A stretch of DNA of 64,000 nucleotides from Bispira polyomma (taxonomy: Eukaryota), in NCBI GenBank assembly GCA_965649765.1, contig OZ287753.1:54560001-54624000 (forward strand). Direction: 5' to 3'. Numbering within the stretch: position 1 is the stretch's first letter; each line of letters starts with the position of its first letter. Below, piece by piece: positions 1-38,225 of this stretch. The notes beneath the pieces were generated by a model. It was not told the origin of the DNA. It was given only the letters and a program-made list of their open reading frames with translations, and did not search any database. Made by a program: the position numbers and the translations under genes.

Positions 1-428
1 GAATAAGCACTATAACAAGTAGGACTGCCAAGAGAGAATCCTCTTACTAAGCTGTTCTACTTTAGTCCGTCCTTAGCTTACAACTTATATATACATAATT
101 TTATATCATCTCTGTATGCCTTAAGTACAACCCTTATATTCCAGTCATTTGTATTCTAATGAAAAATTAACAACAACTTATCAAAAATAATAGATACTAC
201 CTTCTAGTGGCTGCACATACCATTGTTGATTTAATATAGCTCCTATCCATTGCACTTTATCAATGAATTACACTGAATAAAATGTCCTTTGATTCTATTT
301 GAACAAATATGTATACATGATTCATGTATTTAGCATTTTGAAACAATGTTTTGTCAGAAATGTACAATTACCTTTAGTGACACACATACAGCTGTTATTT
401 ATCAATACTAGGTACAGGGGAGGAAACA

Positions 429-2861
429 CTAAAAAATGCTGGTTTCACTTGATTGTATTACCTTGACTTTTCCATTGAAGTTTGTGTGTTGTAGTATGAC
501 CCCAGCATGGAGTGTGGCTGGTGCTAGTGGTTTTGGTGTAGCCACCAGTGACCTTTTCTTTGTTTTTGCCCCCTTACCACTGAGGAGTGTAAGGACATTC
601 TTAGTACAAATGAAGGCGAAGCAGATATATACCCCATGCAGGCTGTTCAATACAATGAACACATACCACAGGACTGATAATTCGGTCATTGCCGCTAAGA
701 AACCAAAGACCCAGGTTAGTCCCATAATGAGACCGAGTTTGACGTACAACAGGAACAGGTGTGTCTGGTTGTTATTAGAGCGGCTGTGTCTGGTGGCCCT
801 TGAAATCAAGCACATTTTGATACTAGTGCCAATGAACAGAATGACATTGATGATCAGTATTAGGGTGACAGGGGCAATAAAAGTGATAAGGAGAGACCAC
901 TTCTGTGTGAACCAGCAGACCCCATCTCCATACATAGGCCTGAACATATCCGGTACTTCTTCTGTGAACTGTAAAACCAAGGCCACACCAATGATCAAAG
1001 CAGCTGTCATCCACACAAAGAAGGAAGCCCAGACAAAATGCATGGTATGATCTTCACTGAGGTTACTGGAAGACACAGAACGGAAGATGCCAACAGAGAG
1101 TACGTTAATCCAGAAGAAGGAAGCCAGGTAGAAGTAGTGGGTTAAAACTCCCAGGGAGAAGCAGACATCTGGGTAACTTCGAAGAGGTCCTCCGACAAGG
1201 AAGGATAGTTGGCCTAAGAGGAGAGCCACCACCAGACTGACTACACACTTCCCTGGAGTATTCCTCAGACAAGGGAACATCATATAGATGACAAAGACCA
1301 CAAACAGGCAGATGATAGATATTAGAAGTCCAATGTAAGAGATCCACATTTGTATCCTGTTATACTGAAACATTGTCATTGTGTCTGCAGAAGCATTGCT
1401 TGGTGGGGACATGGTATAGTTCTGGTTCATGAAAGGTGTGCAGATTAAGATGTCACCAGCAGTGATGTTAACATATTCCTCCATGCTGTAACTTTTGGAA
1501 TACAAAGGTACAAAAATACCCCCAGAAGGAATGAAATGATATTCAGCAGCATGGAGTGTAACAAAAGGACAATTAAGATGCTGTATTCCATTTTCAAGTC
1601 TTTCTCTATAGGTGGTATAACTTTCAGAGTTTGTTACATCATAAAGACCACTGATTACTGCTGCAGATGTGATATCTGGGGGCTGTTGTGTCGAATATAC
1701 TTTATCAAATCCTCCACCACTATGTAGTATTGATGCTACAATCTTTCTGCTGGGATCATACGGGGCAACACCATTAGTGTCATCCAGACATTCACCATTC
1801 TGAAACTTATAACCTGGCTGGCAAGCCACTAGCCTACAAATTTTAGCAAAGGGGTCATAGACATGGTTGTCTAGGCATCTCCTTAGCTCTACTGTGCTCC
1901 GAGTTATATCACCTAGCTTCTGCATTTCAGATAAAGTAGCTCTGCCGATGTTCAGATCTAGTAATATAGACAGAGGAGGTGGTTGCAGGTACTCTGGTTC
2001 CCAAGGTGAAAGATATTTAGGACTGTCGGAACAGTCCAGATCGGTAGTGTTCACAAAGTTACATTGGGCACAAAACTCATTCCTGAATATCTTCTGGAAG
2101 GCGTATCTATAAAGAGTTCCAGCCTCGCACTTCTTCTTCACCTGCTCATCTTTCCAGTCATTGTGGCACCGTGAGATGACATTCTCCTTGCAATACCTTG
2201 CCGTGTGAGTGTGATGTGAAAACATCAAGGTACATTTATTGTAAAAATCAGATTGCAATGTTTCCATAGTGTTTTCAATAGTGAATCCTTGTTCTTCAGT
2301 GTCTACTCCATAGTTACTAAAACACTTGATGTAGGTACTCCAGAAGGACAAATCTACAATTCCGTGACAGACAGCACAAAAGTAGTTCCTGTAAAGAATT
2401 CCACTGGCCTGTCCACTGGTGGGGATATTGGCAAGCATATCGTTTCTTTCACCCCTTTCGCATTGAGATTTAAAGTAGTCATCACTGTACTCTTTGGGAC
2501 ATTTATCCACCATATAAACTGGATGACATCCCGCACGCATTGTATACCCCTCTAAATTCACCTCGTCCATCTGGCGGCATGAATATGTACCATGGGGCAG
2601 TTTGTCAAAGATTTTTCCCAGATCGGAAGCTTCAAAATCTTCACAGCAGTCATTATAAGCCTGGCAGAGGTCATCACAGAAGCAGTTCATCTTCATTTCA
2701 CTTAGGAATCCCAATCGCTTCTGGACACAGCTGTCGCGTTGCAAGCATGTAGGCAGAGTCGGGTCTGGGTCCCCGAACTGACATTGTCCACTTGACCTTA
2801 CAGCTATCAAAGTCAAGGTTATAAACACCTTGACCGAATTATGTAGCACTCCAGCTGCCAT
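429..2861 (-). CDS. Class B (secretin/adhesion/Methuselah-like) 7TM GPCR with signal peptide, somatomedin-B domain and Cys-rich ectodomain, copy 1 (810 aa, intronless CDS)
   Basis: Intact 810-aa ORF; hydrophobic N-terminus; SMB motif NCFCDDLCQAYNDCCEDF; Cys-rich repeats LYRNYFCAVC and IFRNEFCAQC; seven hydrophobic helices with 7tm_2/Mth-type motifs LRNTPGK, HYFYLASFFW, YGDGVCW, MGLTWVFGF, LNSLHGVYI; splice-acceptor-like tttgactttgttttag ends at 2895, just upstream of the ATG. Confidence 0.92.
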   Translation of the reverse strand: MAAGVLHNSVKVFITLTLIAVRSSGQCQFGDPDPTLPTCLQRDSCVQKRLGFLSEMKMNCFCDDLCQAYNDCCEDFEASDLGKIFDKLPHGTYSCRQMDEVNLEGYTMRAGCHPVYMVDKCPKEYSDDYFKSQCERGERNDMLANIPTSGQASGILYRNYFCAVCHGIVDLSFWSTYIKCFSNYGVDTEEQGFTIENTMETLQSDFYNKCTLMFSHHTHTARYCKENVISRCHNDWKDEQVKKKCEAGTLYRYAFQKIFRNEFCAQCNFVNTTDLDCSDSPKYLSPWEPEYLQPPPLSILLDLNIGRATLSEMQKLGDITRSTVELRRCLDNHVYDPFAKICRLVACQPGYKFQNGECLDDTNGVAPYDPSRKIVASILHSGGGFDKVYSTQQPPDITSAAVISGLYDVTNSESYTTYRERLENGIQHLNCPFVTLHAAEYHFIPSGGIFVPLYSKSYSMEEYVNITAGDILICTPFMNQNYTMSPPSNASADTMTMFQYNRIQMWISYIGLLISIICLFVVFVIYMMFPCLRNTPGKCVVSLVVALLLGQLSFLVGGPLRSYPDVCFSLGVLTHYFYLASFFWINVLSVGIFRSVSSSNLSEDHTMHFVWASFFVWMTAALIIGVALVLQFTEEVPDMFRPMYGDGVCWFTQKWSLLITFIAPVTLILIINVILFIGTSIKMCLISRATRHSRSNNNQTHLFLLYVKLGLIMGLTWVFGFLAAMTELSVLWYVFIVLNSLHGVYICFAFICTKNVLTLLSGKGAKTKKRSLVATPKPLAPATLHAGVILQHTNFNGKVKVIQSSETSIF

Positions 2862-3406: not shown

Positions 3407-4988
3407 ATGAGACATGTGAAAATGTACACGTGGGTTAGGGGTGTGATAAGAGGGTATACACTCACACAAATATGTTGATAGCTGCAGGGTGTGTGGTAGG
3501 AAGGCCAAGATAAAGTTTAGTTCCTGGCGTCTACGCCTAGTGGTGGAATCTGGGTTGGTGTCCTCTCCTAACCATTGCATAACAATAAAAGCCATGTTTT
3601 TCACAGAATGTTGGTCTTGTGTAAAGTGTCTAGAACAGGGGTTGATTTGTGTGGCAGGAAATTCTGAACACTACTGTAGTGTTCATACATTCTCTGTCTG
3701 AATGGCCTTTGGGTCTCTCCAATGTATTGGAGGCCACAATGAGTACAGTTGATAATGTAGATCACATGATTCAGTTCACAAGTTATTTTGTGTTTAGGTG
3801 GCAAGTTAAAACATTTATAGACATGTTTAGCAGAGATTTTGGGGCAGCATGTACACTTACCTAGTCTAGTGCAGACAAGTGTGTGTTTGGGTTTGGTATC
3901 ATAAATTGGTTTCTAGGGTACTGGATAGAGGCTTTGGTGAGCCTATCTTTACGGTTGGGTAATCTTCTGTAGCCAATCAATGGTTTTTTCACTGAAGATT
4001 TTAGTTAGTTATTCAGCGTTATATTCCAGTTGTTGTTGACGCGTGAGCTGTTGTTTGGGTTAGTGAGTTGTATTGTGTGACCATCACATTGACATCTTTA
4101 GTTTTATCTGGTTTGGTGGTCAGAAGTTCAGACTGTGTGAATGAGCTTGCTCTGTAATATGGTTTTGAGAGAGTTTAGGGGGTATATCCTCTTCAGGTAA
4201 TACCCAGTAAGCTTGTGTGCTTTGTCCTTGAAGTCCTGATCAAGTACACATATTCTCCTAAGGAGCCGGTATTGGCCATGTTGTCCCTTTTGAAGGACAC
4301 TTTCAGGGTGGGCAGAGTGATTTTCCAAGTACAGATAGGTGTCTATGGGTTTATTTTAGAGAGTTGTAATTAGTCACTGTTGGCACACTTCATATTGGAC
4401 CTTCTTAAACTGGTTCTACACAGTATGAACTTTGAATTTAATGGTGACCACTACCTCCAAATAGGAGGCACAGCTAACGGCACAGCTTTAGCACCCAACT
4501 ATGCCAACATTTTTATGGACAAGTTTGAAAGAAAAGCCAATAAAAATTACCCACTTCAACCCCTTGTATAAAAAAGGTTTATTGATGAATTTTTTATTTT
4601 GGATATTTAACGTCCACTCTAGTACCTGTTCAGGTTATATTGGGACTGGTAGTTTGAAACGCTGGAGGAAACACTGCATACAGTTGATCAAGGTTCTGCA
4701 CTGAAACCAGCGGCCTACAGTAAGGAACTACCACCTTTCCCACATAGGCATCTACGGGATTCGAACTCACGCCACCCAGAGGTGAGAGACCAGTGATTGT
4801 GAAGCGCAATGCTTGCTAACCAATAGACAACCGCAGCCCCCGAAATTTTTTGGGTATGGCCACATGCTGAAGATTCATTAAATCACTGCATAACATACCT
4901 CAATTCACTACACGACACCATTAAATTTACACATGAATATAGTAATGAAAATATCACTCTTCCAGACACCACTGTGAAATTTGGGCCT
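3407..4988 (-). mobile_element. Degenerate Penelope-like retroelement fragment (RT C-terminal half plus GIY-YIG endonuclease) with inverted 5' part
   Basis: Plus strand 4371-4985 encodes the RT core (NFEFNGDHYLQIGGTANGTALAPNYANIFMDKFE...KRFIDE...IKFTHEYS...DTTVK); minus strand 4370-3407 continues with LITTL*NKPIDTYLYLENHSAHP and GIY-YIG (NHVIYIINCTHCGLQYIGETQRPFRQRMYEH); absent from the paralogous site near 34960. Confidence 0.88.
4597..4841 (-). mobile_element. tRNA-derived SINE, family A, inserted in the Penelope RT
   Basis: Near-identical to copies at 11276, 12567 and 54750; A/B box head; flanked by gaatttttt / gaaatttttt. Confidence 0.9.
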
Positions 4989-9319: not shown

Positions 9320-10440
9320 TAGGTGTTGTGTGAATGTTGCTGCTACTGAAGCTGCAGCTTAAGGAGTTTTCACCAGATACCTCGAGATAACGTCGGAGCA
9401 CCAGCCCCCGTGGACTATAATATGTTGTAGGTCGACGTTATGGTCGAACACCCAGCAGGCGCCTGACCTCCTGAGCGCATGGAAACTGAACTCGCCTGGG
9501 GGAGGTTTATTTTTTCTAGCAGTGAAGTGAGCAGCCTACGTACTTGATATGTGGTGATTGTGTTCATGTGACCTTCTGTCTTGAATTGAAATACTGGAAT
9601 ATGTTTTGATGGCTTCTCAGGGACAATCTTAACCAAGGCTTTGTACTGGGCAAAGACTGGAGCTAGGAAGTGCTGGGACTTGAACCATTTGTAATTGCCC
9701 CGATGTTTGCATATTTTTTGCACATTTCGTCAACACATGAGCAGCCGGTGCCCCCAAAATGATATCATTCTGTGTGGGAAACCGTGAGGCTTGGATTTGC
9801 CTAGCTGAAAGGGGGGGACCAAAGTGGCCAGCCTAAAAAATCCCCCCCCAAAAAAAAAACACAAAAGCAAAAACAGCAAAATATTTGTTTTGTAGTGGTT
9901 ATTCCATGGAAAGCCATGAATTAAGTCTACTGTGGGCCGTTGGTTTCAGTGCAGAACCTTGATCAACTGTATGCAGTGTTTCCTCCAGCGTTTCCAACTA
10001 CCCGTCCCAATATAACCTGAACAGGTACTAGAGTGGACATTAAATAACCCAATTCAATTCAATTCAATTCAATTCAATTCAATTAGGTCGACTAACTGTT
10101 TTAGCTTGTCTGGTGTGAACACTCCCTTTATCTTGTATGTTAAGGGTGCATTGCACGAAACTGATTTTAGCACTAATGTAACCTTTTTGTGTTGAAGGGC
10201 CCCTATAGGCAGGTTGTACATCTGAAAGAAATGTTTTAGCACTGAGGTGTATCGCAGTAAAGTACCAGCCCTGTGACCCTGCTGTGCTAGAAATTCCAAA
10301 AATAAAAATATGGAGTTTAACTCCCAAGGAGAGGTAATCTGTAGGTGTACTAAGAAGGCTAAGTACAGTCTAAATTTTACCTGATACGCTGCTGAGGTGC
10401 GAGGACGAAATCCCGAGGGCACTTTGGCATTGATGTCTCG
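9320..10440 (-). pseudogene. Tyrosine recombinase of element 1 (disrupted)
   Basis: N-terminal SAM-like GFRPRTSAAYQVKFRLY; catalytic FHALRRSGA..HGGWCSDVISRY readable at ~9490-9375 on the minus strand; SINE insertion at 9928-10080. Confidence 0.85.
9928..10080 (+). mobile_element. 5'-truncated SINE family A with (AATTC)n tail
   Basis: 3' half matches other family A copies; imperfect TSD aattaagtctact / aattaggtcgact. Confidence 0.9.
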
Positions 10441-10475
10441 AAGCAGGCCTCTTATAAGTGGGTTACCAAGAATAA

Positions 10476-11060
10476 TTAAATATTATAGTTAGGCTTTAGC
10501 CAGTCTAACTTCACCCCATGCCAGGTACACGTTTTTAAATAGGCCACTTCTGCCTTAGGCGTGTTCTCATAATAATCCCATCCAGACAGAAAATCTGCAT
10601 ATGTATTATTTATGCCTCTTACGTGTTCCACATAGATTTTGATATTACATTTGGCTTCTAGTAGCCACAGATTCCTAGCGCCAGCGTTGAGGAAGACATC
10701 TCTGCATTTAAACCTGTTTAGTATGTATACCACTGCTAGGTTGTCGCAATTGATACAAACTTTTTTGTTGCCCCACCTGTGGCCCCATACATGAAACGCG
10801 ACAATGACATTGACCATTTCAAAGTGTACTATTGTTAGCGTGTCCTTAAAGTGTTGAGGGATACTGACTTCATATACCTGTTTGTCCCAGTATGCCCCTA
10901 TCCCAGTAAGTGATGCGTCAAAAAATAATTGGTTTATTGTTCCCCCAGTTTTATGCATTTCTGTTACCCCATTGTACACCTGTAAAAACTCACAAAACCA
11001 ATTAACGTCTTTGTAAAACCCTTCACCCAAGCTTATTGTTGCGTTTGCCATTGTAAACAT
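10476..11060 (-). pseudogene. RNase H domain of element 1
   Basis: FFDASLTGIGA, IVHFEMVNV, NCDNLAVV, EHVRGINNTYADFLS: DIRS/Ngaro RNase H motifs. Confidence 0.85.
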
Positions 11061-12278
11061 AATTGTTTGACTTCCTTTAATTTCTTGTTGGGTATTGTTA
11101 ACCGACTTGTGCGCGCATTAATAATAATGCCTAAGCATGTTAACTCTTCTATTGGAGAATCGACTTTGTCTTGGTTTATGGGTAATCCTAAATTCTGTAT
11201 TAGGTTAAGTAAAGTACTGAATGCTATATTAGCCTTTCCGGGAGGTGTAACCCCGATGCAGTTGTAGAGGTACGAATTTGAATTTGAATTTGGATATTTA
11301 ACGTCCACTCTAGTACCTTTTAGTAGGTTATATTGGGACAGGTAGTTGGAAACGCTGGAGGAAACACTGCATACAGTCGGTCAAGGTTCTGCAGAGAAAC
11401 CAGCGGTCCACAGTAAGGAACTACCACCTTTCCCACATAGGCATCGACAGGATTCGAACTCACACCACCCAGAGGTGAGAGACCAGTGATTGTGAAGCGC
11501 AATGCTTGCTAACGACTAGGCCACCGAGGCCCCTTGTAAAGGTATGAACATATCCAGTAGTTGTATTTATGCATGAGGTATGTAATTCCGTCCGTTGCCA
11601 TTTGGCATGCGCATGCACCCGGGACTAGGCTGAAGGGGATGCTGACGTCAGCATATAGTTTATCTTCCCAACTTTAGCCCAAAACTGAGTAATCAAACTG
11701 ATCTGTCGTCAGATTCCTATAAGCCCGTTGCAAATTAATTTTGTATAACAGACATTATGGGACTAGAGAGGCCATTTTCTGGACTATATTGTCAATTGTT
11801 GAGTACTTAATTGAAACTCTGTGTTATCGAAAATGTTGCGCGGAATACATGAATTGACACTGTGTGGCCAAGAAAGGTCCACTATAATGCGCCTAGAGCC
11901 TTTTGGCTTTGGCCTTGACATTAGTGGAGATACGTATAGTTTTTCAAATGGACTATTTACCATCGGGCCCACCATAGCCTTATGTCCTACCTCTGTTGTA
12001 AAATACTCATTAACATCCCTGGGGAACCTTAGTGCTGAGGGGTGATTATCCACATGTGTGTTATATGTGAAATTACCATAATCCAAGGACAAAGGAAAGC
12101 CAAATTGAAGGTAGTCACACACTACAGCCAAATCATAATGTTCTAAGTAAGCCCGCCAGGCCCTGATGTTTAACTGTGAAGGCACTGGCACCCTGGCCCC
12201 TTCATAGTTTGGTATACCTGTGGCTTTAACTATACTGTGGGCTTTAGTGACCCATTGTATCATGTCTTTACTTTGCAA
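11033..12278 (-). pseudogene. Reverse transcriptase of element 1 (disrupted)
   Basis: VSPLMSRPKPKGSRRIIVDLSWP, LGLPINQDKV..ELTCLGIII; interrupted by SINE 11276-11533 and frameshifts. Confidence 0.85.
11276..11533 (-). mobile_element. Full-length SINE family A
   Basis: A/B boxes; (AAATTC)n tail; TSD ttgtagaggtacgaa / ttgtaaaggtatgaa. Confidence 0.92.
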
Positions 12279-12566: not shown

Positions 12567-12819
12567 GGGTGGCCTAGTGGTTAGCAAGCATTGCGCTTCA
12601 CAATCACTAGTCTCTCACCTCTGGGCGGCGTGAGTTCGAATCCCGTCAATGCCTATGTGGGAAAGGTGGTAGTTCCTCACTGTGGGCCGCTGGTTTCATT
12701 GCAGAACCTTGATCAACTGTATGCAGTGTTTCTTCCAGCGTTTCCAACTACCCGTCCCAATATAACCTTATTAAGTACAAGAGTGGACATTAAATATCCA
12801 AATTCAAATCAAATCAAAC
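12567..12819 (+). mobile_element. Full-length SINE family A
   Basis: tggcctagtgg A box, gagttcgaatcc B box; (AAATC)n tail; TSD cttgattggacc on both sides. Confidence 0.92.
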
Positions 12820-17632: not shown

Positions 17633-17725
17633 AAATGGTGTAGAAAACGTTTACAAAGAGGCTCATATACTAGTGTCCCAGTTGGTGCCCGGGAATTCTC
17701 GAAAGACAAAGTAACTGTCCCAGCG

Positions 17726-19004
17726 ATGGCTAGCTTGCCAGGAGAGAAGTCTAAGAAAACCAAACAGAAAAGGACTAACGACAGCTTGTTCGGACCATCA
17801 GGTGAAGTACAGGGTCGATGTCATTTCAATGCCAATGTCTGTGATAGTGTCAAGCGGTCAGTTTCCTAGTCATACGCGAACGAGAAGTGTGGTTAAGGCG
17901 AGACTCGCAGGTGAGGCTGATAACAGGCTTCCTGTATCAGAGTTAGCTGGTCAGATGAATTCACAGCAACGACTTGGCAGTGATGGGCGTCAGATGTTAG
18001 ATGTCAGTCAGCAGTTTACTAAGGGCAGTGGTGATTCTCAGACGTTAGATGTACTTCAGCAGTTGGGCCAGTTGAGGCAGGCGGTGCTTTCTTTGAAGGA
18101 TGTTAACTCGCAACTGATGAAATGGGTGGATACTATTAAATCGAGTACAAGTTCGGATGTTGTGGCTGAGACTGGTGTCAGGGAAGCAGTACCAGTAGTA
18201 TCCGTTAACCCTCCGAAAATTTCTCCCTCACTGGGAGGGGAAAAATCCTCACTTGACCAGTTACAAACTTTCGGATCCGGTTCGAATAGTGTTAGTTCGG
18301 ATCTGGCTGTACAGCAGGAAGTTCAGAGGAGACTACTGGAGATGGAGGACCAGGAGGATCAAGTATTGGACTTTGGTATGTCAAATTTTAAAGCTAGTAA
18401 CAGAAAAGTTAAGTCTGGTCAGTTTAGAGTTGGAGGGGAAACCCCTTGTAAGAGGTTTGTATATTGGCCTCATGATCTGTGTTTCATTGGAAGTGACTGT
18501 AAACGAGTAACGTATGATGAGCTTACATTGCTACAGTGGTCATTAGGTTTCAAAAGATGTATTCTTAAAGAATCCGATTTGCAAGTACAGCAAAACATGC
18601 TTAAGTATAGTACTGAATTAATGCAGAATGCCATGGATCTCGGTTGGTCAGTAGCAAAAGGGGCTCACAGAGTCGTTATGTGTAGTATGGAGGACGGTCT
18701 GTTGACCTGGGCTGAACCAGATAAAGTTAATGAGATTAGGCGGCAGTTTGCCCAGAGACAAGTAGTGGCTAATGCCAAGTCGGGTTATGTTAAGTCAGCT
18801 TCCGGTTTCTCCAATAACAGGGAAGTCTGTACTAAATTTCAGTCGGGCACTTGTGAATCTAGTGTAGACCACAAAGTAGGCAATGTTTGGCTCAGGCACG
18901 TCTGTGTTTATTGTATGAATACAGTGAATCGGCCATATCTTCATAAGGAAATGGACTGTCAAAAGAAAAAAGAAAAAAACGGCGGCGCTACCTCTCGGCA
19001 GTAA
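17726..19004 (+). pseudogene. Gag-like ORF1 of element 2 (probable ATG 17726, one frameshift near 17860)
   Basis: 400-aa open stretch 17802-19004; KSGQFRVGG..YWPH..TYDELTLLQW..GWSVAKGAH; C-terminal CTKFQSGTC..H..HVCVYC..H..C zinc-finger-like cluster. Confidence 0.78.
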
Positions 19005-20718
19005 ATAAGGCAGTTAAAGTTAACAATTATAAGAATGTTGAGAGGTCTAGTCAAGTCACTGAAAATATTGTTTTACCACCGGCAGTACAGCCGAGTTGTA
19101 ATGTTAATGTAGGTCAAAGTGTTCACAATATTAGAAATAAAGTTATCTGTAAAGACAATCTGGACAGTGATAGCTGTAAACAGTCTAAACAGGACATTAA
19201 AACTATTTTGCAAGGCAGTAGTTCTGCCAAGTGTATAAACATTGAAGTGAAGTTAGCCAGTAATGGCTGTACATGTTGTTTAAAGTTACAGCAAGACATG
19301 TGTACTTGCATAAGATGTATATATTGTCTGGTAAAACAATCCCTTATGGGGAGGGGGCATGATAGTTCGCTTGAAGGTGAGCAGAAACCTGTTTTAAAAC
19401 AAGTATTTACTGTCAAAAGTACTAGTTGTCTGGATTTTCATCCGGTTATGTCAAAAACGTGTTAAATCTACTCAAAACGGCTGGATTTCGGCAAGTCCAG
19501 TATTTCCTTTCGCTAGCAAATCTCAAACTCACATCACTGCGCGACAGTCCACACAGAAGCCTGTAAATGGTTTGGGTGGAAATGATCCAACTCACTTGAG
19601 TTTAGGCGGCAATACTCCCACTAAGTTCTGTCAGAATGGCTCGGGAATGCACTTTAATCCTCGGAAACTTGGTTTCCGAGGGAAGCACACGCGCCACTTT
19701 TTGCGACACGTGTGGTATTGTTGTGTCTGGAGTGTTCCATAGTTTGGCGCGTGGCATTGTTTGTCGCGCATTAATACATTTTCTCTTATATGATATACCA
19801 AGTCTGGTGAGGTTGGAGCGTGTCACGTGTGCACGCGCAGGTCTATGTCTGACTAGGCGGCAGTACTCAACCAGCACTGCTGGTTCACTGACCATATTTG
19901 GGCACACACAGAAGTTGTATAATACTTTGGCCTACTTGGCTCGTGGCTTCTTCATATTGTAAGGGTATTTGCATTGAATTTATCTTACAAATGAGTTTAG
20001 CAAAATTATTAGTAGAATTTGTGTACACAAGTATGGCTCATGTACAAGCCTGGTCTTTTCTTTGATAGCAGTCTTAAATTAAAAGCAATAACCACAGATC
20101 TTATCAGTAATTCAAATACAGACTTACAGAGTCACATAACTGGTAGTTGTATGCATAGCAAGGTGTGGCCATGTATAGTTGGCACTGTTATTGGACAGTT
20201 AAAACTTGGTTGTATTAAAGCAGTGTGTAATAGTCATGTTACCTAAAGTTTGTGTAGTATTATTAAGTACATATATAGCCGTTTGTGCAGTATTCTTCAG
20301 TACATATATGGCATTTACATCTTTGTTGTTAAATGTTGTACTTATGTGTGCATGTGGCAATGGTTACAATTGTGTAACTTTACTCTTGTTCGCACAGCAC
20401 AGGTTGTACTTGACAGGGTGTACAGTTTAGTTGGTCTACACATTTGGTGGTTCTTGTACTGGTTCTCTACATATGTTGGGTATCTTATTGTTCACATTTA
20501 TAGACATACACAAAGTAATACTGTATACAGTAGTGTCCCACCAGGTCCTCAGATAGACAGTAGTCAAGACCTTTCTGTATATTATAATGGTCATTATATA
20601 CAGTGCACATATCCTGGACAATTTAAATTTGGCTAATTACCAGCAGGTAGTCAGTTAATGCCAATTAATGGCAGCTGCAATTCAATTACTTTTGACTCAG
20701 CAGTACAGCTGAACAAAG

Positions 20719-21483
20719 TTGTTAATAGTTATGGTGGCTGCTTCAATTTTCTGTATCCACGTATTCCAGTACAGTCTTCACTTAACATATCGTCATTCTG
20801 TGAATGCTAGTGTAGCTAAAGGTGTGTTTCTAAATACTAAGTTTGAATTGACTTATCCAACAGTGGATCATATGGTAGATTACATACAACAGTGTGGATC
20901 AGATTGCTACTTGTTTAAAGCGGACCTCCAGCGGGCATTCAGGAAATTTAGAGTTGACCCTCATGATTATCACTTACTAGGGCTGTATTGGCAACAGCAG
21001 TATTATATTGATAAGGCGGTCCCCTTTGGTTTAAGACATGGATCTCATTATTGCCAGCGAATGACTGACAGTATTCGCTTTATTGTGCAAACACAGGAAT
21101 ATGTTGTTTTTAACTACATTGATGACATCATAGGTATCTATGCCTCGTATGATGAGGCTATGGCAGCGTACACTTTCTTACTAAAACTGCTGGCAGATTT
21201 GGGCCTTCCAGTTAGTCCGGCTAAGTTGCAGCCACCTAGTAAATGTATCACTCGCTTAGGACTTAACATTAATGTTGAAAAGGGTACTATAAGTTTACGA
21301 CCAGATAAATTACTTAAGATTACTGAATTGTGTGTTAATTGGTCCAGTAGAAAGTTTGCAACCAAAAATCAAATTCAGAGCATTGCTGGTAAGTCATTGT
21401 ATATTAGTAAGTGTGTCAGGCCTGCTAGGTTATTCATCAATAGAATCTTACAAGTGCTTCACACTTGCCCAGAAAGAGTTTAA
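20719..21483 (+). pseudogene. Reverse transcriptase of element 2 (internally deleted)
   Basis: YIDD catalytic motif and DIRS-type RT blocks. Confidence 0.9.
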
Positions 21484-22789
21484 GATAAGCAGTTCTTTCA
21501 GAGCAGATGTCAGGTTGTTTGTACAATTTCTAGAACAATTTAATGGTGTTGTATTGTATGATAAGCCACTTCAGCATGGTAACATTGTATATGTAGATGC
21601 TAGTTTAACTGGACTTGGGGCAATATATAAAGACACTGGTTACCATGTAGAGTTGTCCAATCTCAAGGATCCTCCTAAACTTATTGTTCACTTAGAAATG
21701 CTTAATGTGTTCACTGCTCTCACTGTGTGGTTGTCTTCATTCAAAGGTTCTCATGTGATTTTGTATTGTGACAACTTAGCTGTAGTCAATGTACTCAATT
21801 TTAACAAGGGTAAGGATGCTTATCTTAATACAGTAGCTCGGCACATTTGGTTACTCACGGCGTCACATGACATTACTTTGCAGGTTAGACATGTGGCGGG
21901 TGTTGATAATGCGGGGGCGAATCTGTTATCCAGGTACTCAGACTCAGCAAAACAGGCACAATTTCATGCCAGTTTTCAGCAGTTGCAACTGCTTCAGGTT
22001 CAAATTGGGCTCACTTATTCCTGCATTCAAAATCATTTGTCAGCCCTAAAGCATTATTTCAGAAGGTTTGGATTGGATGTGGAGATTTTTAGTCATGTTC
22101 ATGTGGTCATGCTTCTCAAGGCTAACAATAACAATGTCACTAGACATGTTAAGGTAAAAGACATTTTTGGGGTGCAAGATTTAATAAATACTTGTGCTCA
22201 ATGTGACAGGATCACTCATGGTATAGTTTTTAAGGCAGTGTTCTTAGTGGCTTTCTTTGGCCTGTTTAGAATAAGTAATTTGTTGTCACATACAGTGTTT
22301 CAGTATGATTGTGAACGACTGTTGTTATGTTGTGATGTTCAGTTCCAATCACCAGGTTTGGTAATACAGGTTAGATGAACTAAAACCATGCAAAGTAGAC
22401 AGATTAGTGTGTTGTTACAGTTACCTTTTATTAACGGTTCTCCGCTTTGTCCAACACAAGCAGTTCAATGAATGTTTGATTGCTACCCGGCTTCTCCGGA
22501 TGCACCACTTTTTGTATTACCTGGTTTACAAAGTCAGTACAAAATTTTGACGGATGTCAAAGTGCGTTATGTGTTAAAGGACATTTTAGGAAACCTTGGC
22601 CTCAATACTTATACTCTTGGTTTTCATGCATTCAGGCGTTCAGGGGCTTCCCTTCTATTTCAAAATAATGTTCCCTTGCAGTGTCTTCAGGCACATGGGA
22701 CTTGGACCTCAGATGCGGTTTGGACTTATTTGCAAACTGGGGCCAATCTTTCCACCATCCCTCAAGCTTTTCAGGCCATTATATCTTAA
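21480..22789 (+). pseudogene. RNase H plus tyrosine recombinase of element 2 (stops at 22376 and 22468)
   Basis: RNase H motifs to ~21960, then recombinase with R (FRISN), HxxR (HAFRR) and Y (VWTY) catalytic residues. Confidence 0.88.
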
Positions 22790-30194: not shown

Positions 30195-31135
30195 AGCCCA
30201 TGTCACACACATAAGGATTAGAGCTACAGAAGTGTGAAAATTGAGATTCATATCGAACCTGGACAACGCTTCGAAAAAATTGCAGTAGCCAGTCAGCAAA
30301 TTTTCTAAATATTCATGGATTTGTACTAAAATTGTATAAGTCTTGGTGATGGAAAGGTGGAATATTCACAACAAGTCATTGTTATTTGGTTATTTATCAG
30401 AAGGTCTAATCATAAAATAATTGTCAGCAAATGTGGGACATTCGTGAATAAATCGACTTTGCTATACATGGCAATTATTGGCTGAATCCTAGGTGCTTTT
30501 TATTCCTTGTCTGGCATGGACTTTAGGCATTTTCTCACTTTCACGACCATGGCTATTGACTTCAGGGACGATTTAGGCGATGTAAAGCCATCTACAATTC
30601 GCACAGGATGTACTCTAGTCATGCTCGCTATAGGAGCAACTTTAGTGATCACACCACATGCAAGTTGCATTCTCCAATCACCCCTAACTCCACCATAAGT
30701 CGTTGTTTGTGTGACCTGTGTGCTCTTGTCACGATTGTTACATACAGGATGGTTGGTACAATCAGTTGTGTATTGAGCTAAGAAGGCACCACATTATCTA
30801 TAGAAACAATGAGGTGGTCTTATTAGGTGATCATAGGGTCCTACCAATACACACAGCTAACATGGTGGCAGCAGTCTTTGCTCAACTAACAGTGCAATCC
30901 TTGCGATGGTATTGCATTATCAACTTGACCCTGGCACTTCTAACAGTACCTCCTATGTTAAACTGTCACACGGTTTGCCTGGTTTTGCACAACAGGGACT
31001 ACTGGACAGACACCAGATGCAATCTCAGCGTTTCAAATCATTTGAAACTCGATAATGGGTGATCTGGGAGGGGCAATCCACATCACTTCAGCATCGTACT
31101 GGGATCTCAAAATCGCTAAAGTGAGAACTAGGCTT
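30195..31135. mobile_element. PIF/Harbinger-like non-autonomous DNA transposon
   Basis: Imperfect TIRs taagcccatgtcacac / gtgagaactaggcttta in T/A-rich flanks; no coding capacity. Confidence 0.6.
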
Positions 31136-32434
31136 TAAATTAGTCATACTTAGCATTGCATGTATTTTACATGTTGTAACAGCTGCTGTAGGAAGTAGTT
31201 ATATTTTTTTGGCAGATTTCTTTTTCAGTGTTTAGTTTTAGTCACTTATCTAACTGATGCAGGCTGTCAAGCCCGCCAATATCTTGTAAAATACAGTTAT
31301 ATTTTTGTTAGGAGAGGACTACACCCATGTATTCTTACTGCAGTATAAAGAAAGATAGATATCAGATTTACATGAGATAGAACAAATTAAAAAGAATTAT
31401 CTAACTTTAAATAGTGTCTTTCGAATGTTTGCTCATTAGGGTAACTGATAAACCTTCTTATCATATTTCCCGGTTGTGTTTACATACTGTTAGAAATTTT
31501 GATAAATGGTTTCTATCATTTATGTAAGTGGCACAGATTTTCTTCTCTACGCACATATACAGATACAAGTACTATGGTTATGTAACTTGCCAGTCACTGG
31601 TCACTTTGCAGTGAAAAGGTGTGTGTGTGTGGGGGGGGGGGGGGGGGGGGACTTGATTAATCATCAACACCACAGTTACATAACTGAATATATATTAACA
31701 CTATATACAGAGGCTGTTATATGTTGTCCAGGCAGATCTATTTTTTCCTAGGGTGTCAAATGCTCAACTCTTCTTTCAATTTAACAATGTTAATGCGTGA
31801 TTTAAAGCTATATATTTTTATTGTTTATGACAAACCATGTTGACTAAAACAATTGGTCTGAAATTGAGTTTTTAAAATTAGTAGTTTTGTGTCTAAACTT
31901 TTTGTTTTTGTCTTAATATATATCATAAATCAACACTGTATTTATTCTAGTGCACTACTCATTGATAACCTAGACCCTTGTGATTTCTAGATAATTGCTG
32001 TGTGTTTTCCTTTTCAGTAGAAAATTAAATATTCTACCAGAATATCAGGGTATTTTGACATATCTACCTCAATGCAATTTAGTTACTTTTGACAAGCTCC
32101 CCCCCCATACACACACATCAAAAGTAGCTTCACCACATATTCAATATAAGGGTCTACTTGAAGGGAGTTTAGGATGGTGACATCCATTCTACTCTCAGTG
32201 TAATCAGTTTGAATAGAATCATCTTATATAGTAGCCTCATATGTTATTTTATTAAACTTTCACCCCTAAAAAGGTTCAGTTTATGTTTTTTTCCTTTATG
32301 TAAGTTGCTTGATATGTGTACATTTTGTACACCATTGACCACCCAAGCTAGTCACTTTAAACTCCACCCATTACATGTCTTATTGCTTTTCATCAACTAA
32401 TTCATAGTAGTAGTTCTTCTACCCGGGTAGATAG

Positions 32435-32663
32435 GGGGCCTTGGTGGCATAGTGCTAACACACTCGCCTCTCACTTCTATGGTCCCAGTTCGAATTTCGG
32501 TCGGAGTTTTAAGTAGGAAAATTGACAGTTACATCCTGATGGTCGCTGGTTTTCATTGTAGACTCTTGACCACCTAGCAAACAGTGGTTTCCTCCAGCAT
32601 TAAAACTGCCAGTCGTGATATGACCTATTCAATGTTGAAAACGACGTTAAAGCCAAATCAAAT
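32435..32663 (+). mobile_element. tRNA-derived SINE (family B)
   Basis: ggggccttggtggcatagtg A box, gttcgaatt B box, ggtttcctcc core, gacgttaaagccaaatcaaatc tail. Confidence 0.8.
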
Positions 32664-35600
32664 CTACCTCGGGTAGAAACGATACAATGGAAATAACTCG
32701 TACATAACTCCATTACTATGGAAATGTGCTCAAACTTGTTATATGTTGCATTGTTTCCCAGAGATACATGATTTTTTAAAAAATAGAAGCATTCAATAGG
32801 TCTGCCAAAATTTTGAAAGAATACATGCCAGCTCAGTTCACACCCAATTGGGTTGAACATTTTCAAAAAAAAACAACGCACCCTCTTGAATGGAACTAAT
32901 TTATCCCACCTAAATTATAACAATGCTGTATTCACATATTTGCAAACTGGTAATGTAAAATCTATGTATCTAAGCATGATATATGTCCAGGGTTTTATGA
33001 TTTACACATGAAAATATTTCAAGGGAGCCTGTTTGTGTTGGTTACTACTAAAAAGCAATAACATTTGAACTGCTTTTTCGGTTGTTTAGGGCTGGAGCAT
33101 AGACATATATTGAATGAAACCTAATCTCCTGATTGGGCAACTTCATGTCACATGATCTTTATTAACATCATTATTGTCCAGACATTTTGTAAAACAGATT
33201 AAAAGTATATGTACAGTGTATGCATTCTCACAGACTTGATCTTTATGGTGTGGGCTGAATTTTAACCCAGCCTGTTTTCAATGTTTTTAAGCTTCACAAA
33301 AAAGGTGATAAGGTTTGTAAATAAACAATACCAGGGCATATGGCAGACCTTGCAATGTCAGAAAATGTTGCATAAAACCTTGAACTAGTGTTAAGTTAAC
33401 CATACTCCATAATGTGAATCACAAAAAAAACAACGTTTTTTTCATTCTCAGTCAAATGTTTATACGTTTCCCTAAAGAAATGGTCTATTTTTGTCTCATT
33501 GTGGGAAACTGGATAAGAAATTTAATAATGAATTCATGTTCAACATGAAGGATGGGAAAATAAAGCAAAGGAAAGCAGCCAAATTTCTGATGCTGTCAAA
33601 AAAAAAAAAGAAATTTTGTAAGATTTAGAACCCTTAAATTTATCGACAACTTTTGTGAGTTAGATTTTTGGTAATGTTTGTTACACATTCATAACACCTA
33701 CATGATTTTAAATCATTATTGTTTTTGTAACAATGATAATGAAATAAAACAAGGATAGTTACAAATAAGGTATTATAAGATGGTTAAATTTTATCTTAAT
33801 AAAATTAAGCATATAGGATGCTTCATCTCACTTCTTGTACATGAACTATCCAAGGTTTGATTTACTCCCTCCACACCACTGAGAGCATGGGGAGGATATT
33901 TACTGACTGTTCAGCTTCACATCAGTTTTCGTGATAAAAACTACATTAAGCCAGCATCCTCTCTACATATACTGGAGTTCCTCCTTGTGTAGATGTCTTG
34001 TGAAGATAAGCTACATCCACAGACAGCAGTAGGTAGCTTAAAGTGGCCAGCCCACAAACAATCATAGAGGCACTTTACAAGAGTGATCTAAACATATTTC
34101 TCTTCTGAAGAGGTCCATATCATCAGCAAGACAGGGGAATTTATTGTCTTAGGTGAGAAAACTACTTGAAGCAGTTTTCTAATCACATCTGGTGGTGAAT
34201 TTTTTGTTGGTTTCCCTAAGAGCAGATAGTTGACTCAAGATATGAGCTAGCTTATGAGACGACTAAAGAGATGGGTACAGATGTATATAGAAAGAAGTAG
34301 TGTGTATGCTGAGATGTTTACTGTGTGTGTTGAAATGTATTGTACACAAGATAACAGAAAGAAAACCAATTACATATGCTCAAAAGCTTTCCAGTTGGGA
34401 AATTGCTTTTCATCTGAAACACTCCTTGAAAAAAACCCATTTTACCAGTGCTAACATAAATATGTAAATGCTTCAATGCTAATGGAGGTAAAGTTGTATT
34501 TGTACACTATTTAATTTTACAGTAGATTTATAATCCACAATATGTTGAAGATATATATTGTTCACTAAGTATTAGGTTAAAAACCAAATACCGGTATTGA
34601 TATATGGGTCTCCCATGTATGGGAACTTTGCAGTTATCCAAACGAATCCAATGTCTCTAGAGACTTGTGGATGGATGGTTGTGGTTCTTCTGTAGACGTG
34701 TTTTCAATGGACCAGTTAGCATCCCTGCAGGTGTAACCAGCTGCTGTTGCATGAGATAACCTGTTCTTCTTATACTCTACAAACAGTTGAAATACATGAG
34801 TAGAAGATAATAGTTTTTGCGATAATATTGAGTCAAACAATATTTCCGAAAATCCAAAATCTTTGACACTGATAACTGTCTGATAACTGAATAGTACAAA
34901 AATACTGTAAATCAGGGATTTAAGTGTTGTGGATAACCCAAATTACTTAGATGTCTAAGAATACTGTTCTAATAGCCTTGCTATTAGGCCCAACATCAAA
35001 GTTTAAAAAAAATTCTGGCGAACTGATTGTGTACACCTGAATAACATAATATGCTCTAAAAACTTGTATATTACAACATAGACAGATATGTGTATATTAT
35101 TCCTTTGGGTTCGATTCAGACAAGAAAATATAGCCTGTTACTTTATGTTAAATTAGTTGTGCACATAATTTTTTAATTCATTCCAAATCAAATTAGACTT
35201 TCTGACAAACTTAAGCCTTAAGCAGGGCTATTGTAGTACTGATCAAGGAGTAAGATAAGCCATTCTATATGGATTAGGAAGAGAGGGATGATTGAGATGG
35301 TTAGACCCTGGGATTATTATCTAGACCTGATACAAGTGAAAAGTAGGGATGCAGACAAAAGTTTATATTGTTGAGAGAATCAAACGAAAAAGAAAGCACA
35401 GAGCCTAAGAGTGTTGGTATGTGTTAAAATAACTGTACAGAAAACCATGGCTCCTGTACAAACTCATGTTACTTTATGATGGATGGCCGTGAAATAACGT
35501 GGGATTAGCTTTTGTGTGTGTGAATATTGCAATGTTTTTTACCTCTACTTTTGCCTGAGCAAATAAGAAAAAAAATTGGGGGCGATGTATTTGTAAAGAA

Positions 35601-35687
35601 TATATGCTGTTGTTTGTGTAATAAACCTATTGTACCTTTTTTCCTTTGCTTTCAGAGTATAGAACTCCCACTGAAGACAAAAGCAAC

Positions 35688-38225
35688 ATGGCAGCTGCAG
35701 TGCTACAGAATTTGGTCAAGGTGTCTATGACCTTGACATTGATAGCTGTAAGGTCAAATGGACAAGGTCAGCTTGGGGACCAAGACATGTATGTTTATGA
35801 TGACTCACCTGCTCCGACTCCGCTTTCAGCGTATTACCCCAATGGAGGTATAGACTATGGAGAGTACTCTTATAACTTGGAATACACCTGCTCACAACGC
35901 GACAGCTGTGTCCAGAAGAAATTCCTGAGTGACATGCAGATGAACTGCTTCTGTGATGACCTCTGCCAGGCTTACAATGACTGCTGTGAAGATTTTGAGG
36001 CTTCTGATCCGGGTAAAACGTTTGAGAAGCTGCCCCGTGGTACGTACTCATGCCGCCGGTTGGACGGGGTAAATTTGGAAGACTACACAATGCCTGCGGA
36101 ATGCGATACGGTTTATGTGGTGGATAAATGTCCCAAAGAGTACAGCGATGACTATTTTAAATCTCAATGCGAAAGGGGTGATAGGAATGACATGTTTGCC
36201 AATATCCCAGCTAGTGGACAGGGCAGTGGCATTCTTTATAGTAACTACTTCTGCGCTGTCTGTAACGGCATTGTAGATTTGTCCTTCTGGAGTATCAACA
36301 TCATGTGTAGTAATAACTATGAAGTAGACACTGAAGAACGAGGGTTTACCATTGAAAACACTATGGAAACATTGCTTTCTAATTTTAACAATAACTGTAC
36401 CTTGATGTTCTCACATGACACTCACACGGCTAGGTATTGCAAGGAAAATGTCATCTCACGGTGCCACAATGACTGGAAAGATAAGCGGGTGAAGAAGAAG
36501 TGTAAGGCTGGAACTCTTTATAGATACGCCTTCCAGAAGATATTCAGGAATGAGTTTTGTGCTCAATGTAACTATGTAAACACTACCTACCTGGAATGTT
36601 CTGATGGCTCTGAATGTCTCCCAACTACAAGAATAGAGCCCCCTCCCCTGTCTATACTACTAGATCTAAACATCGGCAGAGCTACTTTATCTCGAAAGCA
36701 GAAGCTAGACGATGAACTAACTGATGAAACTCAGAGCACAGTAGAGCTAAGGAGATGCCTAGACAACCATGTCTATGACCCCTTTGCTAAAATTTGTAGG
36801 CTAGTGGCTTGCAGACCAGGTTATAAGTTTCAGAATGGTGAATGTCTGGATGACATGAATGGTGTTACTCCGTATGATCCCAGCAGGAAGATTGTAGCAT
36901 CTACACTACATAGTGGCAGAGGATTTGATGAAGTTGATGGCGTATATCCGACACAACAGCCCTCAGATATCACATCTGCAGCAGTAACCAATGGTGTTAA
37001 TGATGTAACAAACACTGAAAGTTATACAACCTACAGAGAAAGACTTGAAAATGGAATTCAGTATCTTGATTGTCCTTTTGTTACACTCCAGGCTGCTGAA
37101 TATCACTTCATTCCTTCTGGGGGTATATATGTACCTCTGTATTCCAAAAGTTACAGCATGGAGGAATATGTTAACATCACCACTGGTGACATCTTAATTT
37201 GCACACCTTTTATAAACCAGAACTATACCATGACCCCACCAAGCAATACTTCTGCAGACACAGTGACAATGTTTCAGTATGACAGGATACAAGGGTTGAT
37301 CTCCTATATTGGACTTCTAATATCCATCATCTGCCTTTTTGTGGTCTTTGTCATCTATATGATGTTTCCTAGTCTGAGGAATACTCCAGGGAAGTGTGTA
37401 GTCAGTCTGGTGGTGGCTCTGCTCTTGGCCCAACTATCCTTCCTTGTTGGAGGACCTCTTCGAAGTTACCCAGATGTATGCTTCTCTCTGGGAGTTTTAA
37501 CCCACTACTTCTACCTGGCGTCCTTCTTCTGGATCAATGTACTGTCTGTTGGCATCTTTCGTTCCGTGTCTTCTAGTAGCCTCAGTGAAGATCATACCAT
37601 GCATTTTGTCGGCGCTTCCTTCTTCGCATGGATGGCAGCTGCTCTGATCGTTGGTGTGGCCTTGGTTCTACAATTCATAGAAGAAGTACCGGATATGTTC
37701 AGGCCTATGTATGGAGATGGGGTTTGCTGGATCACACAGAAGTGGCCTCTCCTTATCACTTTTGTTGCTCCTGTCGCCCTGATACTGGTCATTAATGTCA
37801 TTCTGTTCATTGGCACCAGTATCAAAATATGCTTGATTTCAAGGGCCACCAGACACAGCCGCTCCGATAACAACCGGACACACCTGTTCCTTTTGTATGT
37901 CAAACTTTGTCTCATTATGGGACTAACTTGGGTCTTTGGCTTCTTAGCGGCAATGACCGAGTTATCAGTCCTGTGGTATGTGTTCATTGTATTGAACAGC
38001 CTGCATGGGGTATATATCTGCTTTGCCTTCATCTGTACTCGGAATGTCCTTACACTCCTCAGTGGTAAAGGGGAAAAAAACAAAGACAGGGTCACTGGTG
38101 GCTACACCAAAACCACTAGCACTAGCAATGGCACTCCATCTTGGGGGCATAGTAAACACAGTGTACTGGACACCAACTTCAATGGCAATGTCAAGGTCAT
38201 AGAATCAAGAGAAACCAGCATTTAG
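35688..38225 (+). CDS. Class B (Methuselah/adhesion-like) SMB-domain GPCR, copy 2 (845 aa from ATG 35688)
   Basis: Close paralogue of 429-2861 with the same domains; the ORF-track TTG start at 35646 lies in a polypyrimidine tract ending in acceptor AG at 35654-35655, so the probable start is ATG 35688 (MAAAVLQ, matching MAAGVLH of copy 1). Confidence 0.92.
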   Translation: MAAAVLQNLVKVSMTLTLIAVRSNGQGQLGDQDMYVYDDSPAPTPLSAYYPNGGIDYGEYSYNLEYTCSQRDSCVQKKFLSDMQMNCFCDDLCQAYNDCCEDFEASDPGKTFEKLPRGTYSCRRLDGVNLEDYTMPAECDTVYVVDKCPKEYSDDYFKSQCERGDRNDMFANIPASGQGSGILYSNYFCAVCNGIVDLSFWSINIMCSNNYEVDTEERGFTIENTMETLLSNFNNNCTLMFSHDTHTARYCKENVISRCHNDWKDKRVKKKCKAGTLYRYAFQKIFRNEFCAQCNYVNTTYLECSDGSECLPTTRIEPPPLSILLDLNIGRATLSRKQKLDDELTDETQSTVELRRCLDNHVYDPFAKICRLVACRPGYKFQNGECLDDMNGVTPYDPSRKIVASTLHSGRGFDEVDGVYPTQQPSDITSAAVTNGVNDVTNTESYTTYRERLENGIQYLDCPFVTLQAAEYHFIPSGGIYVPLYSKSYSMEEYVNITTGDILICTPFINQNYTMTPPSNTSADTVTMFQYDRIQGLISYIGLLISIICLFVVFVIYMMFPSLRNTPGKCVVSLVVALLLAQLSFLVGGPLRSYPDVCFSLGVLTHYFYLASFFWINVLSVGIFRSVSSSSLSEDHTMHFVGASFFAWMAAALIVGVALVLQFIEEVPDMFRPMYGDGVCWITQKWPLLITFVAPVALILVINVILFIGTSIKICLISRATRHSRSDNNRTHLFLLYVKLCLIMGLTWVFGFLAAMTELSVLWYVFIVLNSLHGVYICFAFICTRNVLTLLSGKGEKNKDRVTGGYTKTTSTSNGTPSWGHSKHSVLDTNFNGNVKVIESRETSI

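What the first reader, a model, noticed from the sequence alone, without database searches (positions are those of the whole stretch)
429..600. Paralogous GPCR C-tails read in different frames through compensating indels
Seen: after TM7 the two copies share nearly the same DNA. Copy 1 lacks 1 nt in the A-run (caaaaac vs aaaaaaac), then 3 nt, then 11 nt (15 in total). About 25 codons are therefore read in another frame before both rejoin at TNFNG. Copy 1 reads TKKRSLVATPKPLAPATLHAGVILQH; copy 2 reads NKDRVTGGYTKTTSTSNGTPSWGHSKHSVLD. The alternative frame of copy 2 (ORF 38005-38202) gives SLVATPKPLALA, confirming the frame switch. Inference: copy 2 carries a Ser/Thr cluster of the kind used for GRK phosphorylation and arrestin binding, which copy 1 has replaced with a Pro/aliphatic segment. 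Two very similar receptors may differ in desensitisation or trafficking while keeping the terminal motif.
Basis: partly seen in the sequence, partly recalled or inferred. Interest (0 to 1): 0.7.

Follow-up and report, generated by a model that had tools for sequence, protein, structure and literature searches.

The report
Frameshifted tail in duplicated receptor gene
One of two neighbouring copies of an invertebrate cell-surface receptor gene reads about 25 codons of its tail in a shifted frame and has lost tail motifs that its relatives keep, which likely reflects relaxed selection after duplication and is predicted to weaken control of the receptor's shut-off and recycling; this kind of change is already described in other genes.

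Summary
Two inverted paralogues of a somatomedin-B/7tm_2 (Mth2-like) receptor differ by a compensated frameshift over 25 tail codons. Contigs of three public runs (two samples, one study) match copy 1 exactly across the indels. Outgroups read copy 2's frame, so copy 1 is derived.

Two corrections. The '11-nt deletion' fits better as +1 C plus an in-frame 12-nt loss. The terminal motif is not kept: copy 1 ends ETSIF, not ETSI, an ending seen in 0 of 172 homologues. The conserved element lost is a distal [ST][RK]x[STN]-hydrophobic motif (12 of 21 ETSI-type relatives) more than the Ser/Thr cluster (8 of 21).

Copy 1 evolves faster (53:16 changes outside the tail) but keeps an intact frame and dN/dS 0.29. 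Nothing shows selection for the new frame (1 synonymous, 7 replacement changes).

Best reading: a tolerated compensatory frameshift in a relaxed tail. It is a known kind of event (PMC8935012, PMC8872073). Expression and trafficking are untested. The scan's notes hold no matching finding.

The parts
429..2861 (-). Copy 1: single-coding-exon somatomedin-B + 7tm_2 receptor, 810 aa; the derived, faster-evolving paralogue
35688..38225 (+). Copy 2: same receptor, 845 aa; conservative paralogue with the ancestral tail
562..575 (-). First frameshift: 1-nt loss in copy 1, within the A/G runs after the inferred helix 8; exact place ambiguous
489..563 (-). 25 codons of copy 1 read in the shifted frame (residues 767-791)
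514..515 (-). In-frame 3-nt indel (copy 2 longer, 38129-38131); polarity unresolved
484..495 (-). Compensating event: best fit +1 C (about 491) plus in-frame 12-nt loss of the SVLD codons; alternative one 11-nt loss
429..488 (-). Rejoined distal tail of copy 1, with 3 replacements and an added Phe codon; ends ETSIF
38106..38126 (+). Ser/Thr cluster of copy 2 (pXpp-type patterns); predicted GRK/arrestin site, untested
38151..38171 (+). Subfamily-conserved element SKHSVLD of copy 2, destroyed in copy 1
38211..38225 (+). ETSI-stop: class I PDZ-type ending of copy 2, conserved in the subfamily
   Evidence: definition in PMC5345131
2862..7409 (-). Upstream non-coding blocks of copy 1 that match 30461-35687 of copy 2, including an AG splice-acceptor-like site just before the ATG; shows a DNA-level inverted duplication

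Best explanation
Copy 1 is the derived member of an inverted gene duplication and carries a real pair of compensating frameshifts in its C-terminal tail, which likely fixed because that tail had come under relaxed selection while the receptor body stayed constrained, and which is predicted to leave a receptor less coupled to phosphorylation-, arrestin- and PDZ-dependent trafficking than copy 2. Steps. (1) Shown: a DNA duplication with upstream flanks, dS 0.22. (2) Shown: copy 1 took a -1 and a frame-restoring indel about 75-85 nt apart, plus other tail changes. (3) Shown from the natural frames: either shift alone would stop only 5-8 codons early, well past TM7. Inferred: such an intermediate was cheap with copy 2 intact and a single coding exon. 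(4) Inferred: the return to frame needed little or no selection. (5) Predicted: loss of the S/T cluster, of the SKHSVLD element and of the ETSI register slows desensitisation or changes scaffolding and recycling.
For: Polarity: P0001, P0002 and P0003 read copy 2's frame. The tree has (c1,c2) at 100/98, with branches 0.063 and 0.012. Body constrained: pairwise dN/dS 0.29 (CI 0.22-0.38), 0.18 in the 7TM. The copies differ at 3 of 99 family-conserved columns against 54 of 363 variable ones. No net frameshift or stop in 2.26 kb, where about 17 frameshifts and 11 stops are expected if neutral (rate from 33 gaps in 1882 flank columns). Faster evolution: copy 1-derived to copy 2-derived changes are 39:13 in the N-terminal part (p 0.0004) and 14:3 in the 7TM (p 0.013). 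Tail relaxed: 4-5 indels against 1.5 expected if neutral (P 0.07 and 0.02); 1 synonymous and 7 replacement differences in the new frame; 3 replacements in the rejoined part; two random frameshifts compensate half the time. The literature pattern matches: pCFMs are biased to gene ends and to less conserved, younger genes (PMC8935012).
Against: Only 8 substitutions lie in the shifted part, and they cannot be polarised without outgroup DNA. Judged in the old frame they are 3 synonymous and 5 replacement changes, so power is low. Four to five tail indels is at the high edge of the neutral expectation, which also fits positive selection. After the added Phe the ending still has Ser at -2 and a hydrophobic last residue, and a new pXpp pattern (SETS) has appeared, so some tail function may persist. 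The per-lineage dN/dS (about 0.47 and 0.10) assumes dS splits evenly. The flank indel rate rests on the best-aligned blocks. No expression or signalling data.
Confidence: 0.62

Rival explanations
1. Adaptive retuning: selection favoured removal of the phosphorylation and trafficking elements in copy 1, giving a long-signalling or differently localised receptor, and favoured the return to frame to regain a PDZ-type end.
For: Several independent hits fall on conserved tail elements: the frameshift, the SVLD loss, E>Q and R>S, and the added Phe. 21 changes at outgroup-invariant columns against 1 in copy 2, with the frame intact. Copy 1 also lost a conserved Tyr/Asp-rich N-terminal stretch. Loss of tail phosphosites makes human CXCR4 hyperactive (PMC11257845, abstract).
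Against: No dN/dS above 1 was found. The regained end has itself been altered. Compensation is a coin toss under neutrality. Loss of conserved motifs is what relaxation also gives.
Confidence: 0.2
2. Copy 1 has recently stopped working (silent or a young pseudogene), and the tail indels are early decay that happens to keep the frame.
For: Copy 1 evolves about 3-5 times faster. A581G falls at a column that is Ala in 31 of 33 homologues. Copy 1 has lost 29 N-terminal residues.
Against: 0 disruptions against about 28 expected limits any fully neutral phase to at most about 11% of its branch. Conserved columns are spared. Upstream blocks and the acceptor-like site are kept.
Confidence: 0.14
3. The 1-nt difference is a homopolymer assembly error, so copy 1 really reads the ancestral frame up to the second break.
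For: The site lies in A and G runs. The three runs are from one study, their library type is not on record, and they may include the assembly's own sample.
Against: A contig of depth 25.5 bridges the site with 0 differences. In the other two runs more than half of the depth lacks the extra base, and the contig that has it carries copy 2's letters. Two errors would be needed to give an open frame.
Confidence: 0.03

Closest known systems
[quoted passage not shown]
   Same: Two frame-breaking indels restore the frame and recode the segment between. Such pairs are biased to gene ends and to less conserved, younger genes. The -1/+1 type matches NCR3LG1 and SPATA24, and the span (about 75-85 nt) is within their 7-99 nt.
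   Different: Here the contrast is between paralogues in one invertebrate genome. There is no second species or mRNA carrying the derived state, which their high-confidence set required.
Type-M frameshifted duplicates (Guo et al. 2022, PMC8872073; abstract and Results part 1 of 2 read)
   Same: A duplicate pair whose derived copy has a second frameshift returning to the original frame (6 of their 80 pairs). Ks under 0.3, Ka/Ks under 1, and a C-terminal bias.
   Different: Their cases are from human, mouse, zebrafish and fly, with expression confirmed for 78 of 80. This one is an invertebrate class-B-like GPCR with expression unknown.
Methuselah/Methuselah-like receptors outside arthropods (PMC4768249) and amphioxus somatomedin-B adhesion-type GPCRs (PMC2246102)
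   Same: 7tm_2 domain, weak somatomedin B hit and no Methuselah_N hit. Named homologues are annotated Mth2-like. The family is known for lineage-specific expansions.
   Different: No ligand or signalling data exist here for this ETSI-ending subfamily. The frameshifted tail is unique among the 178 homologues fetched.
CXCR4 WHIM tail mutants (PMC11257845, abstract read)
   Same: Functional analogy only: loss of C-tail phosphorylation sites impairs internalisation and prolongs signalling.
   Different: Those are human disease alleles in a class A receptor, not a fixed difference between paralogues with a restored frame.

Membership tests
pCFM (PMC8935012) | Two indels not divisible by 3 that together restore the frame without an intervening stop | tested here: met
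pCFM (PMC8935012) | Both indels on one branch, no intermediate observed | tested here: inconclusive
   Both are on copy 1's branch and no homologue shows an intermediate, but no close orthologue of copy 1 was found
pCFM (PMC8935012) | Each indel 1-2 nt long (the paper's filter) | tested here: inconclusive
   First is 1 nt; second is 1 nt under the best fit, 11 nt under the alternative
pCFM, high-confidence set | Derived state in several species or backed by mRNA or protein | not testable with these tools
   No second species among the homologues; only read contigs back the derived state
Type-M frameshifted duplicate (PMC8872073) | Paralogue pair, derived copy fixed by an outgroup, second mutation returns to the original frame | tested here: met
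Type-M frameshifted duplicate (PMC8872073) | Ka/Ks below 1 in the common frame | tested here: met
   0.29, CI 0.22-0.38, over 724 codons
Type-M frameshifted duplicate (PMC8872073) | Derived copy is expressed | not testable with these tools
   No RNA run could be laid
Mth/Mthl receptors (PMC4768249) | 7tm_2-type seven-helix domain | tested here: met
   PF00002 at E 2.5e-23 and 2.8e-26
Mth/Mthl receptors (PMC4768249) | Falls in the Mth/Mthl clade of a 7TM tree with reference members | tested here: inconclusive
   The tree has no curated reference rows and weak deep branches; source names 'Mth2-like' come and are as the sources wrote them
[quoted passage not shown] | Copy 2 ending | tested here: met
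   ETSI; 10 of the 10 best hits also end this way
[quoted passage not shown] | Copy 1 ending | tested here: inconclusive
   Ser at -2 but aromatic Phe at 0 and no Glu at -3; wider definitions admit Phe (recalled); binding untested
pXpp arrestin-activating motif (10.1101/2022.10.10.511578) | S/T-x-S/T-S/T about 15-30 residues after helix 8 | tested here: inconclusive
   Present in copy 2, P0001 and P0002, absent from copy 1's shifted part; about 14-17 residues after an inferred helix 8; 75% of shuffles also hold one
pXpp arrestin-activating motif (10.1101/2022.10.10.511578) | Sites are phosphorylated and recruit arrestin | not testable with these tools
   Needs cell assays

The most novel reading that the evidence does not exclude
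Copy 1 is an expressed receptor that selection has uncoupled from trafficking control. A frameshift pair, a 4-residue deletion and a one-residue extension knocked out both halves of a deeply conserved two-part tail signal ([ST][RK]x[ST]-hydrophobic plus ETSI). The pair would then be a natural knock-out that reveals what this signal does in Mth-like receptors.
Probability: 0.17. Interest if true: 0.6.

Novelty: new member of a known kind. Interest (0 to 1): 0.33.

Why it matters
Well-supported compensated frameshifts are rare: 6 high-confidence genes among about 36,000 in PMC8935012 and 6 of 80 duplicate pairs in PMC8872073. This is a clean case, polarised by outgroups and backed by read contigs. 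It also hands over a natural tail swap between two receptors 92% identical in the 7TM, and points to a conserved two-part tail element in this receptor subfamily. It does not show a new mechanism, and the most likely cause is tolerance, not innovation.

Tried and rejected
Copy 2 as the derived copy: rejected, three outgroups read its frame.

A third close paralogue: DNA search of G000 found 2 of 2 candidates, the two copies. Protein search gave 11 matches, the others at most 42% identical over the 7TM. No homologue lies in the 10 kb beyond copy 1.

A relative with copy 1's tail: none among 39 near-length hits, 1 shorter hit or the best 150 of 7241 representatives. The one 5-mer match was in TM2. 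The metagenome scan gave 10 loci, all distant.

Expression: no RNA holder listed; this is no evidence either way. Polymorphism in copy 1's 5' part (1300-2861) was not examined.

Ribosomal -1 slippage at copy 2's A-run (a slippery-type heptamer, motif recalled): it would enter the other frame, which stops within about 14 codons, not copy 1's frame.

Gene conversion keeping the shifted DNA: the 33-nt identical tract at 521-553 is only the 11th longest of 16 tracts of 28 nt or more.

The first-indel placement had an offset error and was redone.

Paper searches with 0 hits: methuselah-like + somatomedin B + GPCR; GPCR + C-terminal tail + frameshift + paralogs + alternative reading frame. The library lacks most subscription journals. 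PMC11187414 (passages) gave no rule for residues upstream of SNX27 ligands, so no PDZ partner is named.

Earlier scan notes: nothing near this place; one note on an unrelated viral gene, not used.

No structure was predicted, since a fold would not decide between the readings.

Full report
The locus. The window lies on contig C6 of G000, a 1,035 Mb genome in 75 contigs. Two long open frames face away from each other 32.8 kb apart: copy 1 (429-2861, minus, 810 aa) and copy 2 (35688-38225, plus, 845 aa). Both have a 7tm_2 domain and a sub-threshold somatomedin B hit, and Pfam reports no other family. The closest named homologues are annelid and mollusc proteins, some labelled Mth2-like by their sources. 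Non-coding blocks up to 4.5 kb upstream also match between the copies, including an acceptor-like AG just before the start codon, so this was a DNA duplication. A DNA search of G000 finds only these two copies.

The observation. After TM7 the copies align with a net loss of 15 nt in copy 1, and 25 codons are read in another frame. Contigs from three public runs (two samples, one study, library not on record, possibly including the assembly's sample) were laid on 200-1300. In 3 of 3 runs a contig matches 200-550 with no difference or gap, which covers the second break, the 3-nt indel and the end of the gene. In X1 a contig of depth 25.5 spans 521-680 without a difference. In X2 and X3 the extra base appears only in a contig that carries copy 2's other letters and holds under half of the depth. 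Of 60 contig pieces 24 were shown. An assembly error is therefore unlikely.

Anatomy. The 1-nt loss has 10 equally good placements between 562 and 575. For the second break a single 11-nt gap needs 7 mismatches in 29 bases, two deletions need 5, and a C insertion plus a 12-nt deletion needs 4. The last reading also keeps the His-Thr-Lys-His register seen in P0001 and P0002, and the 12-nt gap can slide over four positions, as expected from a short flanking repeat. One complex event remains possible. Copy 1 also has three extra T before its stop.

Direction. P0001 and P0002 (79-83% identical to copy 2 in the 7TM) and P0003 (64%) all read copy 2's frame to the end. In a 7TM tree of 42 of 42 rows the copies are sisters (100/98), with branch lengths 0.063 for copy 1 and 0.012 for copy 2. 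Copy 1 is derived. Read in the natural frames, the first shift alone stops about 8 codons early and the second alone about 5 codons early. Neither touches the 7TM.

Selection. Over 724 codons (tail and two poorly aligned stretches left out) dS is 0.22 and dN/dS 0.29 (CI 0.22-0.38); in the 7TM it is 0.18. Against P0001, copy 1 has 39 derived residues to copy 2's 13 in the N-terminal part and 14 to 3 in the 7TM. At columns invariant in the three outgroups the count is 21 to 1. Yet across 33 homologues the copies differ at only 3 of 99 well-conserved columns against 54 of 363 variable ones. Flanking DNA has 33 gaps in 1882 columns, 15% of them multiples of three. At that rate about 17 frameshifts and 11 stops would have hit a neutral copy 1 body, and none has. 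The tail has 4-5 indels against 1.5 expected. The 8 substitutions inside the shifted part are 1 synonymous and 7 replacement changes in the new frame, and 3 and 5 in the old frame. The rejoined part has 3 synonymous and 3 replacement differences, the latter all on copy 1's side. Two frameshifts drawn from the flank spectrum compensate 50% of the time. Copy 1 is thus a maintained gene with a loosened tail. These are rough, small-number tests without outgroup DNA.

What was lost. Copy 2's segment has 11 Ser/Thr in 31 residues and three pXpp patterns; copy 1's has 4 in 25 and none, though a new pXpp arises at its very end. The pXpp motif activates arrestin in CCR5 and V2R (10.1101/2022.10.10.511578, passages). 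Such patterns did not predict GRK selectivity across receptors (PMC8795447, passages). A GRK and an arrestin modulate signalling in the fly pathway that uses Mthl1/Mist (PMC7054018, passages). But pXpp is easy to get by composition (75% of shuffles) and is found in 8 of 21 ETSI-type relatives against 4.2 in shuffles.

More conserved is the distal part. 21 of 178 homologues end [EQ]T[SC][IM], and 12 of these 21 carry [ST][RK]x[STN] plus two mostly hydrophobic residues 20-24 positions from the end. The shuffle mean is 0.4, but I fitted the pattern on these same rows, so that contrast is inflated. Copy 2 has the element (SKHSVL); copy 1 lost it to the frameshift and the 12-nt deletion. The 10 best representatives all end S/T-x-V/I/L, 8 with Glu at -3, which is the class I PDZ consensus (PMC5345131, passages). 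Copy 1's ETSIF moves the register by one. 0 of 172 homologues (6 adhesion-type rows, P0034-P0039, left out) end in S/T-x-F or ETxI plus one residue. What these elements bind is untested.

Mechanism. The most likely course: duplication; relaxation of copy 1, strongest in the tail; one frameshift tolerated because it only trims the tail and copy 2 is intact; a second indel that returns to frame by chance or under weak selection; further erosion of the end. The predicted result is a receptor less tied to phosphorylation-, arrestin- and PDZ-dependent trafficking (0.62). Rivals are adaptive uncoupling (0.20), recent silencing (0.14) and assembly error (0.03).

Comparison with what is known. This is a pair of compensatory frameshifting mutations in the sense of PMC8935012 (abstract and Results part 1 of 3) and a type-M duplicate in the sense of PMC8872073 (abstract and Results part 1 of 2). 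Both papers report the C-terminal bias seen here. The supplementary tables of PMC8872073 were not opened and may list GPCR type-M cases. The receptor resembles non-arthropod Mth/Mthl receptors (PMC4768249, part 1 of 3 and passages) and amphioxus somatomedin-B GPCRs (PMC2246102, passages); clade membership was not settled. Two searches found no paper on this combination, in a library that lacks most subscription journals.

Verdict. Real, polarised and well supported, but a new member of a known kind. Interest 0.33. The adaptive reading has probability about 0.17 and would deserve about 0.6.

Noticed in passing
window 35787-35885 (copy 2) versus about 2750-2763 (copy 1): Copy 1 lacks 29 residues of a Tyr/Asp-rich N-terminal stretch, best read as two in-frame deletions (27 and 60 nt), which P0001-P0003 keep. 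Such stretches can carry sulfotyrosines for ligand binding (recalled), so copy 1 may differ in ligand as well.
   Followed up: partly
window 38151-38222 and homologues P0001-P0160: A two-part tail signature, [ST][RK]x[STN]-hydrophobic about 20-24 residues from the end plus [EQ]T[SC][IM]-stop, marks a subfamily of Mth2-like receptors (21 of 178 end so, 12 of the 21 have both). Function unknown; I did not search the literature for it.
   Followed up: partly
window 1989-2003, 1924-1928 and 1817-1821 (copy 1): The pairwise aligner opened three more short paired gaps in the ectodomain (5+4, 1/1, 1/1). They may be tiny compensated shifts or clusters of substitutions.
   Followed up: no
window 10069-12278 (-) and 17715-22378 (+): Broken retroelement pieces between the two genes: a reverse transcriptase hit (20713-21480) and an integrase N-terminal hit (10072-10482). 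The layout suggests tyrosine-recombinase (DIRS-like) elements; the label is recalled.
   Followed up: partly
window 48655-49366 (-): Reverse transcriptase fragments, probably a LINE remnant.
   Followed up: no
window 43534-45331 (-): Two open frames that may be exons of a membrane protein gene; only a sub-threshold Rhomboid hit (E 0.003).
   Followed up: no
window 4592-4841, 9928-10057, 11324-11533, 12568-12808, 54750-55005: A dispersed repeat of about 200-250 nt, 88-97% alike, in both orientations.
   Followed up: no
window 200-1300: Copy 2 contigs have about a third of copy 1's depth in run X1 (8 against 23) but about 80% in X2 (12.6 against 15.7), although both runs are of one sample; unexplained.
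   Followed up: no
L005-L009 (G000 C6, C1, C4): Five more distant Mth2-like loci in the genome (29-42% identical over the 7TM); none of their tails ends in ETSI, and L009 has a stop inside the match.
   Followed up: partly
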